This document shows positions 3,070-64,000 of a DNA stretch of 64,000 nt, piece by piece. The position numbers and the translations under genes are program-made. The number at the start of each line of letters is the position of its first letter. Within the stretch, counting starts at the first letter, position 1. The notes beneath the pieces were generated by a model. That model was given only the letters and a program-made list of their open reading frames with translations, searched no databases and was not told the DNA's origin. The DNA is from Octopus sinensis. Lineage: Eukaryota. The DNA is taken from NCBI RefSeq assembly GCF_006345805.1, contig NC_043004.1, positions 16,988,001 through 17,052,000 of the forward strand. The letters are read 5' to 3'.

Positions 3070-3162
3070 GACGTTTACAGCACCTAGGTTTTCCAAGCGG
3101 TTACCCATCTAAGTACTAACTAGGCTCGACTTTTCTTAACTTCGGTGATCGGACGAGAACCG
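3070..3162 (-). pseudogene. 5S rRNA pseudogene, 5'-truncated
   Basis: Minus strand cggttctcgtccgatcaccgaagttaag..gtcgagcctagttagtacttagatgggtaaccgcttggaaaacctaggtgctgtaaac matches metazoan 5S rRNA from about nt 29 to the 3' end, with several substitutions. Confidence 0.88.
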
Positions 3163-3994
3163 AAGCGTAATTTTCAAAGTTCCATTTTGTCTGTATTAGT
3201 GCATAGGAAAACATTATTTCAGTGTGGCATTTAGTAAGGATAATACCAAGAGAGTTAATCACACCTTAAGAATGGTTAGAGCAGAATATAAGTGGCATTT
3301 ATCAACCACCATATTGTTTGCTAGTAATAAGCATTGCAGTACAATAACTTTTGGTATGTAAGATTCATTACGTTTCTCTGGAAATATTCTAAAACTTCTC
3401 ACGTTGATGAACCTCGTAAATTAGTTTATCTTTAACAAATGTTTTAATAATATGGAACAACTGGGATGAGGATACTCAAACTGTGTGCTTCATTTCTAGC
3501 AATTAATTCTCCAGAGTCATCAATTATAATTAGTGACATTCGTGTCTTGGAGGATCCGAATTCTTCCTGCTACACTACTAATTATCATTGATAACAATTG
3601 AACGCTTGGCAATTTTGGTCAGTAAATCAAATCACTCAGAAAAATACATAAATTGGTTGTTCACATTTGATATTTTTAGATTGGTACTTTGTTTACAGAT
3701 TCTGTCTTCCATTCGAATTGATTGCCAAAATAAAAGTTTCATCCCCAACAGATGCCATCAAAATGTTGCCAAACGTTTAGAGCCACAGAGAACCACATAG
3801 CTACACAAAAACACATACACACGTACGCACACACGCGCTCTCTCGCGCACGCATATATACACATTGTTGAGATCATAACAAGTTTATAAACCTCGAGAGA
3901 ACGTGAAATAATTTGCCCATCTCCCAAGAGACAGTATAGCTGAAATCCAAACTATAGAAAAATAGGAAGCCGCAGATAAGCTTTAGTATATTTT

Positions 3995-27783: not shown

Positions 27784-28429
27784 AACAACTTATAAATAAG
27801 GGCAAACGAAAAAATTTCTGATGCCAAATATGCCAAAAATTGGACATATTGTCCATTACCAAATAATTTTTCACAATACGCACGCTACTCGGAAAAAAGC
27901 CGACAGAAATTTCTAAAAAATTCCATTATTACCATATCGGACCGATTTCAGGGTTAGTTCGTTTTCCCTTATTTATAAGTTGTTTATAATTTTAACCTTT
28001 AAAAATTTCTTTTCGAAAAAATTTTATCCTACATTAAATATAAATTTAAGTGTTCACTTCCGGACTCTCTCACTCTATGAGAGTCTCAGTTCAAATCGCA
28101 CGTGTCTTGAATGGGCTGGGATATTTCTATTTTGCATGTATTTGGGGTACTTAATTGTGCTCATGATTTTGTGTTTTGCTTCTTCCATGGGTATGAGTAA
28201 GTATCTCATTTATTTCTTTGCCACATTTATCACTGACGAAGGGAGGGTTCTTACGAACTAACCCTGAAATCGGTCCGATATGGTAATAATGGAATTTTTT
28301 AGAAATTTCTGTCGGTTTTTTTTCGAGTAGCGTGCGTATTGTGACAAATTATATGGTTAATGGACGATATGTCCCATTTTCGGGATATTTGGCATTAGAA
28401 ATGTTTTCGTTTACCCTTATTTATAATTT

Positions 28430-28431
<2 letters not shown>
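27784..28431. mobile_element. Penelope-like inverted pLTR pair (~180-bp arms, ~290-bp spacer)
   Basis: 27784-27963 is the reverse complement of ~28252-28431; the right arm continues upstream into a hammerhead core. Confidence 0.75.
28228..28280 (+). ncRNA. Type I hammerhead ribozyme motif (slightly degenerate)
   Basis: tatca-CTGACGA-aggg..gttc(ttac)gaac..ccct-GAAA-tcgg-TC-cgata; stem II aggg/ccct; A.C mismatch at the base of stem I. Confidence 0.6.
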
Positions 28432-60877: not shown

Positions 60878-60986
60878 TTATATATATATGTTGGTGTGGT
60901 GTATATATTTAAATAAATATAATATATGTGTGTGTGTGTGGTGGTGTATCAACAATCATAACCAAATAAGGATCTATATATATATA

Positions 60987-61020
<34 letters not shown>

Positions 61021-61030
61021 ATATATATAT
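60560..61030. repeat. Compound minisatellite: aacaatcataacaataataaggatcta plus (TA)n(TG)n, ~5 units
   Basis: Motif at ~60560, 60637, 60725, 60818 and 60950. Confidence 0.8.
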
Positions 61031-61326
61031 ATAATATATATTATAATAATTAATTATAAGGGTGAAAGAATAGATACTAATTTAATAGCAATTTTATTCA
61101 ACACCAAGTGGCCTAGTGCTACGAGAAACCTGATTATTATAATATTTTATAACATATTATAATATTTTTACAAAATAAATATAAGAGAGTGGTCAATATA
61201 TTGCTCACTCTAGCACAGTTAATCCAAAAGTTTCAACCACGAAGATACATGTTTCCCATGAAAGCCAGTACGACTGTTAGCTCACACGGACAGGGCAAGT
61301 AAAAAATAACAAAAATACAGATTATT

Positions 61327-61403
61327 TTGGGACAATTGTTTCGCTATTAATGAATTAAATGTAATATACTTACAAAAAAATCCATTTGTAGCTCGTCAGC
61401 CAA
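61327..61403 (-). ncRNA. Type I hammerhead ribozyme, copy 1
   Basis: Minus strand ttgg-CTGACGA-gcta..tagc-GAAA-caattg-TC-ccaa; cleavage predicted after C at 61331. Confidence 0.88.
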
Positions 61404-61858
61404 GACTATCTGGATGAAATCCACTCAATCACACGCCAGATTTTACCATAACGATAAATACGCGTGTGGTTCAATTGATTACATCCGACGTTATAATTCA
61501 AATGCCCCAACCAACAGCGCGCCAAACTTTCACGGAAAACAAATACAGCATTTAGAAATAAATGCAGCATAATTATAATTAGTTAATAAGGGTGAAAGAA
61601 TTAGATACTAATTTAATAGCATATTTATTCAACACCAAGTGGCCTAGTGCTACGAGAAACCTGGATTATTATAATATTTTATAACATATTATATATTTTA
61701 CAAAAATAATATAAGAGAGTGGTCAAATATTGCTCACTCTAGCACCAGTTAATCCAAAAGGTTTCAACCACGAAGATACACATGTTTCCCATGAAAGCCA
61801 GTACGACTGTTAGCTCACACGGACAGGGCAAGTAAAAAATACAAAAATACAGATTATT

Positions 61859-61936
61859 TTGGGACAATTGTTTCGCTATTAATGAATTAAATGTAATATT
61901 ACTTACAAAAAAATCCATTTGTAGCTCGTCAGCCAA
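61859..61936 (-). ncRNA. Type I hammerhead ribozyme, copy 2
   Basis: Same motif; cleavage predicted after C at 61863. Confidence 0.88.
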
Positions 61937-62624
61937 GACTATCTGGATGAAATCCACTCATCACACGCCAGATTTTACCATAACGATAAATACGCGTGTG
62001 GTTCAATTGATTACATCCGACGTTATAATTCAAATGCCCCAACCAACAGCGCGCCAAACTTTCACGGAAAACAAATACAGCATTTAGAAATAAATGCAGC
62101 ATAATTATAATTAATTAATAAGGGTGAAAGAATTAGATACTAATTTAATAGCATATTTATTCAACACCAAGTGGCCTAGTGCTACGAGAAACCTGGATTA
62201 TTATAATATTTTAATATTAATATAATTATTATAATATATATACATGTATCTTCGTGGTTGAAACCTTTTGGATTAACTGGTGCTAGAGTGAGCAATATAT
62301 TGACCACTCTCTTATATTTATTTTGTAAAAATATTATAATATGCTATAAAATATTATAATAATCCAGGTTTCTCGTAGCACTAGGCCACTTGGTGTTGAA
62401 TAATATGCTATTAAATTAGTATCTAATTCTTTCACCCTATTAATTAATTATAATTATATGCTTTTTTTATTTCTAAATGCTGTATTTGTTTTCCGTGAAA
62501 GTTTGGCGCGCTGTTGGTTGGGGCATTTGAATTATAACGTCGGATGTAATCAATTGAACCACACGCGTATTTATCGTTATGGTAAAATCTGGCGTGTGAT
62601 TGAGTGGATTTCATCCAGATAGTC

Positions 62625-62701
62625 TTGGCTGACGAGCTACAATGGATTTTTTTGTAAGTAATATTACATTTAATTCATTAATAGCGAAACAAATGTCCCA
62701 A
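62625..62701 (+). ncRNA. Type I hammerhead ribozyme, copy 3
   Basis: ttgg-CTGACGA-gcta..tagc-GAAA-caaatg-TC-ccaa; cleavage predicted after C62697; one change in the stem III palindrome. Confidence 0.82.
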
Positions 62702-63150
62702 AATAATCTGTATTTTTGTTATTTTTTACTTGCCCTGTCCGTGTGAGCTAACAGTCGTACTGGCTTTCATGGGAAACATGTATCTTCGTGTTGAAACCTT
62801 TTGGATTAACTGGTGCTAGAGTGAGCAATATATTGACCACTCTCTATATTTTATTTTGTAAAAATATTATATGTTATAAAATATTATAATAATCCAGGTT
62901 TCTCGTAGCACTAGGCCACTTGGTGTTGAATAAATATGCTATTAAATTAGTATCTAATTCTTTCACCCTTATTAATTAATACATTATGCTGCATTTATTT
63001 CTAAATGCTGTTTTGTTTTCCGTGAAAGTTTGGCGCGCTGTTGGTTGGGGCATTTGAATTATAACGTCGGATGTAATCAATTGAACCACACGCGTATTTA
63101 TCGTTATGGTAAAATCTGGCGTGTGATGAGTGGATTTCATCCAGATAGTC

Positions 63151-63228
63151 TTGGCTGACGAGCTACAAATGGATTTTTTTGTAAGTAATATTACATTTAA
63201 TTCATTAATAGCGAAACAATTGTCCCAA
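63151..63228 (+). ncRNA. Type I hammerhead ribozyme, copy 4
   Basis: ttgg-CTGACGA-gcta..tagc-GAAA-caattg-TC-ccaa; cleavage predicted after C63224. Confidence 0.88.
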
Positions 63229-63382
63229 AATAATCTGTATTTTTGTTATTTTTTACTTGCCCTGTCCGTGTGAGCTAACAGTCGTACTGGCTTTCATGGG
63301 AAACATGTATCTTCGTGGTTGAAACCTTTTGGATTAACTGGTGCTAGAGTGAGCAATATATTGACCACTCTCTTATATTTAT

Positions 63383-63432
<50 letters not shown>

Positions 63433-64000
63433 CATATATATATATATGCCTGAATGTGTTTGATGCGCGTGAAAGAGAGAATATGTGAGAGTCTCTGGAG
63501 ACTACTTCTGTATATTACACCTATTATATCTATGATGTGGGCAAGATTTCAACCGAGAAAGGCGAGGCCCGAAACTAGAGCCGAATACTCCCTGAAGCGT
63601 CACCTCTGTAACGACAACAATAAGATTATATCCGAAAGCGAGAGACTGTGTCTAGTTGGATTAATCTAGAATCTAACCTATCTAATCTAGTTTGTGTAAT
63701 TTGGCGTACAAATTATCATTCGGTAAATATAATTGAACAATCCCTCAGTAATCAGGAATGAATTAAAACTCAATCATATAAATATTAATGATGATATAAT
63801 TTAATTTCACTGTGATTATGTCAAACTTGCAAGTTTGATTTAATGAATTTTTCGATCATTCTTGATCTCATTAAGATTCGATTATTTACGAAAGATACCC
63901 AATATATTGTGAAAGCACACTAAGTCGATAAAACAAATAAGTCGATAAATTTATCACATTTGAAGCGTAAAAGTATAGTAGGCATCCTAGTATTTCTGAT

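What the first reader, a model, noticed from the sequence alone, without database searches (positions are those of the whole stretch)
61048..63383. Tandem ~530-bp non-coding array with one complete hammerhead ribozyme per unit: a candidate cephalopod retrozyme / circular-RNA system
Seen: a ~530-bp ORF-less unit in near-identical tandem copies. Each full copy has an intact type I hammerhead with stem I ttgg/ccaa, CUGACGA, stem II gcta/tagc, GAAA, stem III ACAAUUGU and a GUC cleavage triplet. Cleavage sites are 532 nt (61331/61863) and 527 nt (62697/63224) apart. Known: Penelope-like elements carry type I hammerheads in their pLTRs, and non-autonomous metazoan retrozymes (e.g. newt satellite 2, schistosome Sm-alpha) are tandem HHR repeats processed to monomeric and circular RNA. 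Inference: read-through transcripts self-cleave into ~530-nt monomers that may circularise and be copied by a Penelope RT in trans. The unit is longer than most animal retrozymes I know of, and I am not aware of a characterised cephalopod example.
Basis: partly seen in the sequence, partly recalled or inferred. Interest (0 to 1): 0.88.

Follow-up and report, generated by a model that had tools for sequence, protein, structure and literature searches.

The report
Hammerhead retrozyme with Penelope insertion footprint
This is one of at least about 600 young genomic insertions of a 535-base, protein-free repeat that carries a self-cutting RNA motif; the shape of the insertions points to a borrowed Penelope-type reverse transcriptase that likely copies one RNA circle round and round from both ends of a DNA break, sometimes likely writing RNA edits into the genome.

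Summary
The four hammerheads and their spacings are real, but the array is a palindrome: about 2.2 units on each strand, head to head, inside a TA microsatellite. The family is young and dispersed (1,582 exact cut-site copies, 592 exact end junctions). Insertions end at two fixed sites, A (~290 nt after the cut site) and B (~160). Of 100 loci, 69 have one A and one B end; none has A+A. Autonomous Penelope-like elements here show the same layout. Arms run through the ribozyme cut site without stopping (3 stops in 111 passes, 3.2 expected), and both arms of a locus share one haplotype (96 of 96 columns). This fits a single circular template. Related 503-546 nt families show compensatory stem changes; no ORF-bearing member or helper element was found. 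Probable RNA runs show clustered A-to-G changes on both strands, and locus-fixed variants lean A-to-G in an ADAR-like context. Cleavage and circles are not shown. Verdict: a new member of the known animal retrozymes, probably octopus, with strong genomic support for the proposed Penelope/circle mechanism. The scan noted such families before on other DNA.

The parts
61048..62241 (-). Left arm: about 2.2 units, from a truncated 5' start (unit position ~150-180) to the fixed long end A (unit ~290) at ~61048
62242..63383 (+). Right arm: about 2.1 units, from unit position 79 to the fixed short end B (unit ~160) at ~63383
61327..61403 (-). Type I hammerhead 1, predicted cut after 61331
61859..61936 (-). 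Type I hammerhead 2, predicted cut after 61863
62625..62701 (+). Type I hammerhead 3, predicted cut after 62697; one change in the palindromic stem III
63151..63228 (+). Type I hammerhead 4, predicted cut after 63224; extended stem II, self-complementary stem III
61331..61862 (-). Full monomer, cut site to cut site (532 nt)
62698..63224 (+). Full monomer, cut site to cut site (527 nt)
61048..61110 (-). End module A: predicted hairpin closed by GGUG/CACC, then CUUAU; inferred start site for reverse transcription
63345..63383 (+). End module B: predicted hairpin closed by AGAG/CUCU, then CUUAU; inferred second start site
60975..61045 (.). (TA)n target, left half
63374..63447 (.). (TA)n target, right half

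Best explanation
The array is one insertion of a young, protein-free 535-nt hammerhead retroelement (animal retrozyme) that lands in TA microsatellites as two head-to-head arms with two fixed ends, and was likely copied from a single circular RNA by a borrowed Penelope-type reverse transcriptase/endonuclease. Shown: the architecture, the fixed ends A and B, one haplotype per locus, read-through of the cut site, the covarying ribozyme, and the same layout in autonomous Penelope-like elements of this genome. Inferred: (1) multimeric transcripts self-cleave, probably as paired hammerheads through the palindromic stem III; (2) a host ligase closes the monomer, in which the lone ribozyme is predicted to be misfolded and so stable; (3) a two-subunit Penelope protein binds the two hairpin-CUUAU modules, nicks both strands of (TA)n and primes one cDNA at A and one at B; (4) both cDNAs roll round the same circle and drop off at random; (5) the two truncated cDNA ends are joined at the centre.
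For: Ends: 32 of 40 top-scoring loci have one A and one B end, 0 A+A, 0 B+B, 6 single arms, 2 unclassed. In 60 loci picked only by the A end: 37 B, 18 single arms, 5 other, 0 A+A. TA follows 36 of 36 B ends. Autonomous RT+GIY-YIG elements here also end in (TA)n with two ends 33-45 nt apart; L339 has the long end on the inverted arm and L340 on the direct arm. This matches the published Penelope inverted-copy-plus-tail layout and the two internal initiation sites seen in vitro. Template: 111 passes of the cut site give 3 stops against 3.2 expected; 5' ends are uniform round the unit (KS p=0.78); 265 of 292 cut-site junctions are exact and the printed rest show small local differences; 60% of A arms exceed what a linear monomer allows, the longest is 9,242 nt. 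One template per locus: 1.5-1.6 substitutions within loci against 5.6 between; private substitutions 12 fixed in all units, 0 partial, 55 singletons; 96 of 96 columns with two or more copies per arm agree across arms. RNA structure: circular fold -149 against -107 +/- 6.6 kcal/mol, z -5 to -9 in five units of four families; 9 of 19 ribozyme pairs change on both sides.
Against: No cleavage assay and no direct sign of a circle; contigs cannot show one. In the one purified Penelope system, hammerhead mutants inserted normally and unprocessed RNA was the main substrate. Only 1 of 9 predicted Xenopus retrozyme dimers cleaved in vitro. No helper was identified: no homology to the Penelope families examined; the best candidate was reached by 7 of 300 shuffles. 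The 130-nt gap between the ends exceeds the 30-40 nt published tail. The wider count has 30 partial-variant entries beside 433 fixed events, 11 of them in one 17-unit array, and 70 of 371 cross-arm columns disagree when single copies are allowed. The covariation rests on three families, so on few independent events.
Confidence: 0.72

Rival explanations
1. Same Penelope-driven insertion, but the template is a linear, uncut multimeric read-through transcript of a donor array. The ribozyme is slow or acts at another stage, and arrays regain length by local unequal exchange.
For: Unprocessed RNA was the main substrate for the anole Penelope protein in vitro. The monomeric ribozyme is predicted not to form stem III. 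A homogeneous donor gives homogeneous daughters. Local amplification is the model favoured for vertebrate retrozymes. The 17-unit array L168 has partly shared variants.
Against: Each new haplotype must pass from one unit to all units of both arms; private variants were 12 fixed and 0 partial. Arm lengths fall off smoothly from 26 nt to several kb, as from one drop-off process. Whole-unit length and a strong circular fold are kept across families only 49-79% identical.
Confidence: 0.16
2. The template is the cleaved linear monomer, and the reverse transcriptase jumps from its 5' end to the 3' end of the same molecule at each round.
For: It also gives one haplotype per locus, and stem I holds the two ends together.
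Against: No excess of stops at the cut site and exact junctions in 265 of 292 cases; end-to-end jumps are usually imprecise (recalled).
Confidence: 0.07
3. The unit is just the terminal repeat (pLTR) of an autonomous Penelope element that I did not find, and the arrays are its truncated debris.
For: Same end layout and ribozyme type as Penelope pLTRs; only 100 of at least 592 loci were examined.
Against: No Penelope ORF match joined upstream of any of 60 A ends; arms of up to 17 units hold no ORF; sister families of 503-546 nt are unit-only in the loci fetched.
Confidence: 0.05

Closest known systems
Metazoan non-LTR retrozymes (coral, mussel, axolotl: PMC7229834, passages and Discussion read; vertebrate survey bioRxiv 10.64898/2026.07.22.740005, parts 1-3 of 5 read)
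   Same: Tandem ORF-less low-GC units (33% GC) with one type I hammerhead each; strongly self-paired predicted circle; proposed Penelope dependence; length within the 51-972 bp range.
   Different: Dispersed head-to-head arrays with two fixed internal ends in (TA)n, which the parts read do not describe ('inverted' and 'target site' occur 0 times in PMC7229834); 42-43 nt extension of stem II; no cephalopod example in the parts read; circles and cleavage untested here.
Endonuclease-bearing Penelope-like elements, Neptune/Nematis type (PMC8557442 passages; PMC3846280 passages; PMC11167929 parts 1-2 of 4; PMC4209133 passages)
   Same: Inverted 5'-truncated copy, tail at one end only, AT-rich or (TA)n targets, two internal start sites, hammerhead with palindromic helix III.
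   Different: No ORF; the unit repeats up to 17 times; the distance between the two ends is ~130 nt, not 30-40; the ends lie 160 and 290 nt past the cut site; canonical C3-G8 core, whereas the autonomous families seen here carry U3-A8.

Membership tests
Metazoan non-LTR retrozyme | Tandem units each with a type I hammerhead | tested here: met
   101 of 116 full units have an intact core, stem II and stem III; covariation. Rfam models do not hit.
Metazoan non-LTR retrozyme | No protein coding, no LTR | tested here: met
   Longest ATG frame 54 codons; no attached Penelope ORF in 60 of 60 loci.
Metazoan non-LTR retrozyme | Dispersed and mobile | tested here: met
   592 exact end junctions; listed hits 94-100% identical on many contigs.
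Metazoan non-LTR retrozyme | Transcribed | tested here: inconclusive
   Runs whose RNA status is a guess hold the unit and show clustered A>G and T>C changes; strand, level and promoter are unknown.
Metazoan non-LTR retrozyme | Self-cleavage of the RNA | not testable with these tools
   Only folding predictions.
Metazoan non-LTR retrozyme | Monomeric circular RNA in vivo | not testable with these tools
   Indirect genomic evidence only.
Penelope-like insertion (non-autonomous) | Inverted 5'-truncated copy with a tail at one end only | tested here: met
   69 of 100 loci A+B, none A+A.
Penelope-like insertion (non-autonomous) | AT-rich or (TA)n target | tested here: met
Penelope-like insertion (non-autonomous) | Shared terminal sequence with an autonomous partner | tested here: inconclusive
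   No significant match to the families examined; only a short CACC-CTTAT-like resemblance at two families' long ends.
Autonomous Penelope-like element | RT plus GIY-YIG ORF between pLTRs | tested here: not met

The most novel reading that the evidence does not exclude
A Penelope protein dimer loads on two look-alike hairpin sites of one 535-nt RNA circle and runs two rolling-circle reverse transcriptions at once, one from each nicked strand of a TA repeat. Some of those circles were A-to-I edited first, so ADAR edits become fixed in every unit of new genomic arrays: a working route from RNA editing to heritable DNA change, and a driver of this family's evolution.
Probability: 0.33. Interest if true: 0.85.

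Novelty: new member of a known kind. Interest (0 to 1): 0.62.

Why it matters
How animal retrozymes get back into the genome is proposed, not shown: PMC7229834 names Penelope elements as a 'strong candidate' and circles as templates. Here hundreds of young insertions record the steps: Penelope-type ends, strict one-A-one-B pairing, read-through of the cut site and one template per locus. That also bears on how the Penelope inverted-plus-tail structure forms, since the two start sites appear to be used in a coordinated pair. The system is testable with a defined 535-nt RNA and intact local RT/endonuclease ORFs. The palindromic insertions would form long double-stranded RNA when transcribed, and the hint of edited templates would be a rare natural case of RNA edits written into DNA.

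Tried and rejected
Rfam at gathering and E-value thresholds: no hammerhead hit; the long stem II probably explains it. First idea that the window is an L1-type 5' inversion with complementary breakpoints: dropped, because both outer ends are fixed across loci. Helper search: GIY-YIG and RT searches and 100 fetched Penelope-bearing stretches (L071-L120, L301-L350) gave no DNA homology of a Penelope terminus to the unit; unit-like hits there were separate insertions. A z=6 match to the 782-aa family on 20 shuffles fell to 7 of 300 with another copy. Sister-family searches gave unit-only families. The homologue search gave no clade or host names of use. Target-site duplications cannot be read inside (TA)n. 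Sequencing runs: no RNA holder listed as on record; contig depth was not used. An A>G excess was not visible in the first small set (1 A>G, 3 T>C) or among strictly private fixed variants (9 and 10); the uncorrected 26 against 12 was rejected for polarity problems. The taxonomy look-up did not bear on the source. Not found in print in searches (listings only; subscription papers missing): a cephalopod retrozyme, retrozyme insertion-end analysis, or edited retrozyme copies. PMC13282606 (passages) has no 'ribozyme'. Supplements were not read; those of PMC7229834 and the bioRxiv survey could list further species.

Full report
Observation. A motif scan of both strands finds four type I hammerheads at the stated places, two on each strand. 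The array is a palindrome: a minus-strand arm (61048-62241) and a plus-strand arm (62242-63383) meet head to head, between TA tracts at 60975-61045 and 63374-63447. One copy has a changed stem III. Rfam misses all four. Positions below count from the cut site in a 535-nt reference unit taken from locus L035.

Family. The genome G000 (2.72 Gb; octopus-like by recalled size and by unchecked scan notes) gives 912 candidate places, of which 40 were scored, with listed hits 94-100% identical. Exact patterns give 1,582 cut-site copies and 592 long-end/TA junctions, with controls 0; both are lower bounds. In 116 full units from 40 loci the substitution rate is 0.66% per site, and the core has 1 substitution and 3 deletions in 1,276 cells.

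Architecture. In the 40 top-scoring loci (biased to long arrays) the outer ends fall at two sites: A at ~290 and B at ~156-163. There are 32 A+B, no A+A, no B+B, 6 single arms and 2 unclassed loci. I then took the first 66 listed A-end junctions less 6 already sampled. Of these 60, 37 have a B end (one aligned to 203), 18 are single arms, 4 have a second arm that ends elsewhere, 1 runs off the fetched stretch, and none is A+A. This sample cannot show B+B. Centre junctions vary and are mostly blunt or have a few bases of overlap. Each end is preceded by a predicted hairpin followed by CUUAU, kept in four families. Published Penelope insertions have an inverted truncated copy and a 30-40 bp tail at one end (PMC8557442, PMC3846280, passages). 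The tail equals the gap between two internal start sites for reverse transcription, and the protein is a predicted dimer that extends both strands (PMC11167929). In this genome, RT+GIY-YIG elements with the zinc-finger-like motif described for the Neptune and Nematis clades show the same thing: TA targets, two ends 33-45 nt apart, long end on either arm. Mobilisation by Penelope machinery is therefore well supported, though by inference.

Template. A cleaved linear monomer primed at A could yield 290 nt at most; 60% of A arms are longer and one reaches 9,242 nt. Arms do not stop at the cut site (3 stops in 111 passes, 3.2 expected), and 265 of 292 junctions are exact. All units of a locus share one haplotype: within-locus differences are 1.5-1.6 against 5.6 between loci; private changes are 12 fixed, 0 partial and 55 singletons in 20 loci; 96 of 96 well-covered columns agree across arms. 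Against this, the wider set has 30 partial entries beside 433 fixed events, and 70 of 371 cross-arm columns disagree when single copies count; many of these are probably assembly errors. A circle explains all of this in one step; a linear multimer needs a separate homogenising step. Neither is shown directly.

Ribozyme. Stems I and II fold with high probability, but stem III does not form in the monomer; the core instead pairs with the cut site. Two copies of the stem III palindrome form an 8-bp duplex of -6.4 kcal/mol. This is the dimer-type arrangement described for animal hammerheads (PMC4209133, passages). Sister families of 503-546 nt, 49-79% identical, keep the core and stem III and change both sides of 9 of 19 pairs in the three families aligned. 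All five units folded as circles beat their shuffles (z -5 to -9). So the whole unit has evolved as a structured RNA for a long time without an ORF in the loci examined.

Helper. Not found. None of the Penelope termini examined is significantly similar. Two families have a CACC-CTTAT-like word at their long end, like end A; this is a lead only.

Transcription and editing. No holder run is on record as RNA. In runs X1 and X6, whose RNA status is a guess, loose contig ends compared by eye with the window show clustered changes: 6 A>G in 17 nt before 61993, 4 A>G after 61455, 4 T>C before 61445, and 4 A>G in 30 nt before 61907. No genomic unit of the 116 has more than 3 such changes in 20 nt. The six loose ends shown for the genome-sized run X15 lack them, but 44 rows were not shown and the animals are not matched. 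Changes on both strands suggest hyper-editing of hairpins formed by read-through of the palindromic loci; they do not show a circle. Separately, variants fixed within loci lean A>G on the ribozyme strand: 19 against 11 T>C (p=0.025, 69 loci, 12 subfamily-diagnostic columns left out), 19 of 19 with a 5' U or A against 73% background; the T>C control has 7 of 11. Locus L187 carries six rare A>G changes in its full passes on both arms. The 5' preference fits ADAR (recalled). The signal is modest, came after several looks at the data, and was absent among strictly private variants; transcription-linked mutation bias is an alternative.

Comparison and verdict. It meets the sequence-level definition of an animal non-LTR retrozyme (PMC7229834; bioRxiv 10.64898/2026.07.22.740005); cleavage and circles could not be tested. 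The class, and the idea of Penelope helpers, are known. The searches listed found no cephalopod example and no reading of the mechanism from insertion ends. Scan notes describe the same layout for other octopus families and for probable copies of this one; they are unchecked, and I reached the architecture and template reading before opening them. Class: new member of a known kind. Interest 0.62.

Noticed in passing
window 27913-28430: A separate short inverted insertion of another hammerhead-bearing family (core at 28233, plus strand, palindromic stem III), ending at TA repeats; a related copy lies in L105.
   Followed up: partly
window 3075-3195 (-): Degenerate 5S rRNA-like sequence (51.8 bits), possibly a pseudogene or the head of a short repeat.
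   Followed up: no
L105, L334/L345, L339/L340, L346 (3' ends): The hammerhead-like motifs of several autonomous Penelope families here read UUGAnAA, a U3-A8 swap of the usual C3-G8 core pair, in all copies printed.
   Followed up: partly
L105:1174-4874: The 781-aa RT/GIY-YIG frame is preceded by an overlapping 479-aa open frame with no Pfam match; published Penelope elements are described with a single ORF.
   Followed up: no
L128, L124, L150, L234, L251, L271-L300: A clade of at least five retrozyme-like families (503-546 nt) shares the long stem II; 721 matches to a core-plus-loop pattern against 4 in the control.
   Followed up: partly
unit positions ~335-370 (window ~63030-63060): A GCG-rich word followed by (T/C)TTGAA is kept in the five units aligned; it resembles cell-cycle promoter elements (recalled) but may only reflect pairing. 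Untested.
   Followed up: no
L187 (G000:C2:8129300-8134300): The first-copied terminal piece lacks two of the A>G changes (243, 256) that all later passes carry; unexplained.
   Followed up: no
L168 (G000:C1:95539000-95548999): A 17-unit arm with several partly shared variants; either noisy assembly or later local amplification.
   Followed up: partly
L103:8286-9228: Another inverted hammerhead insertion with a 42-nt stem II loop and palindromic stem III, not similar to this family.
   Followed up: no
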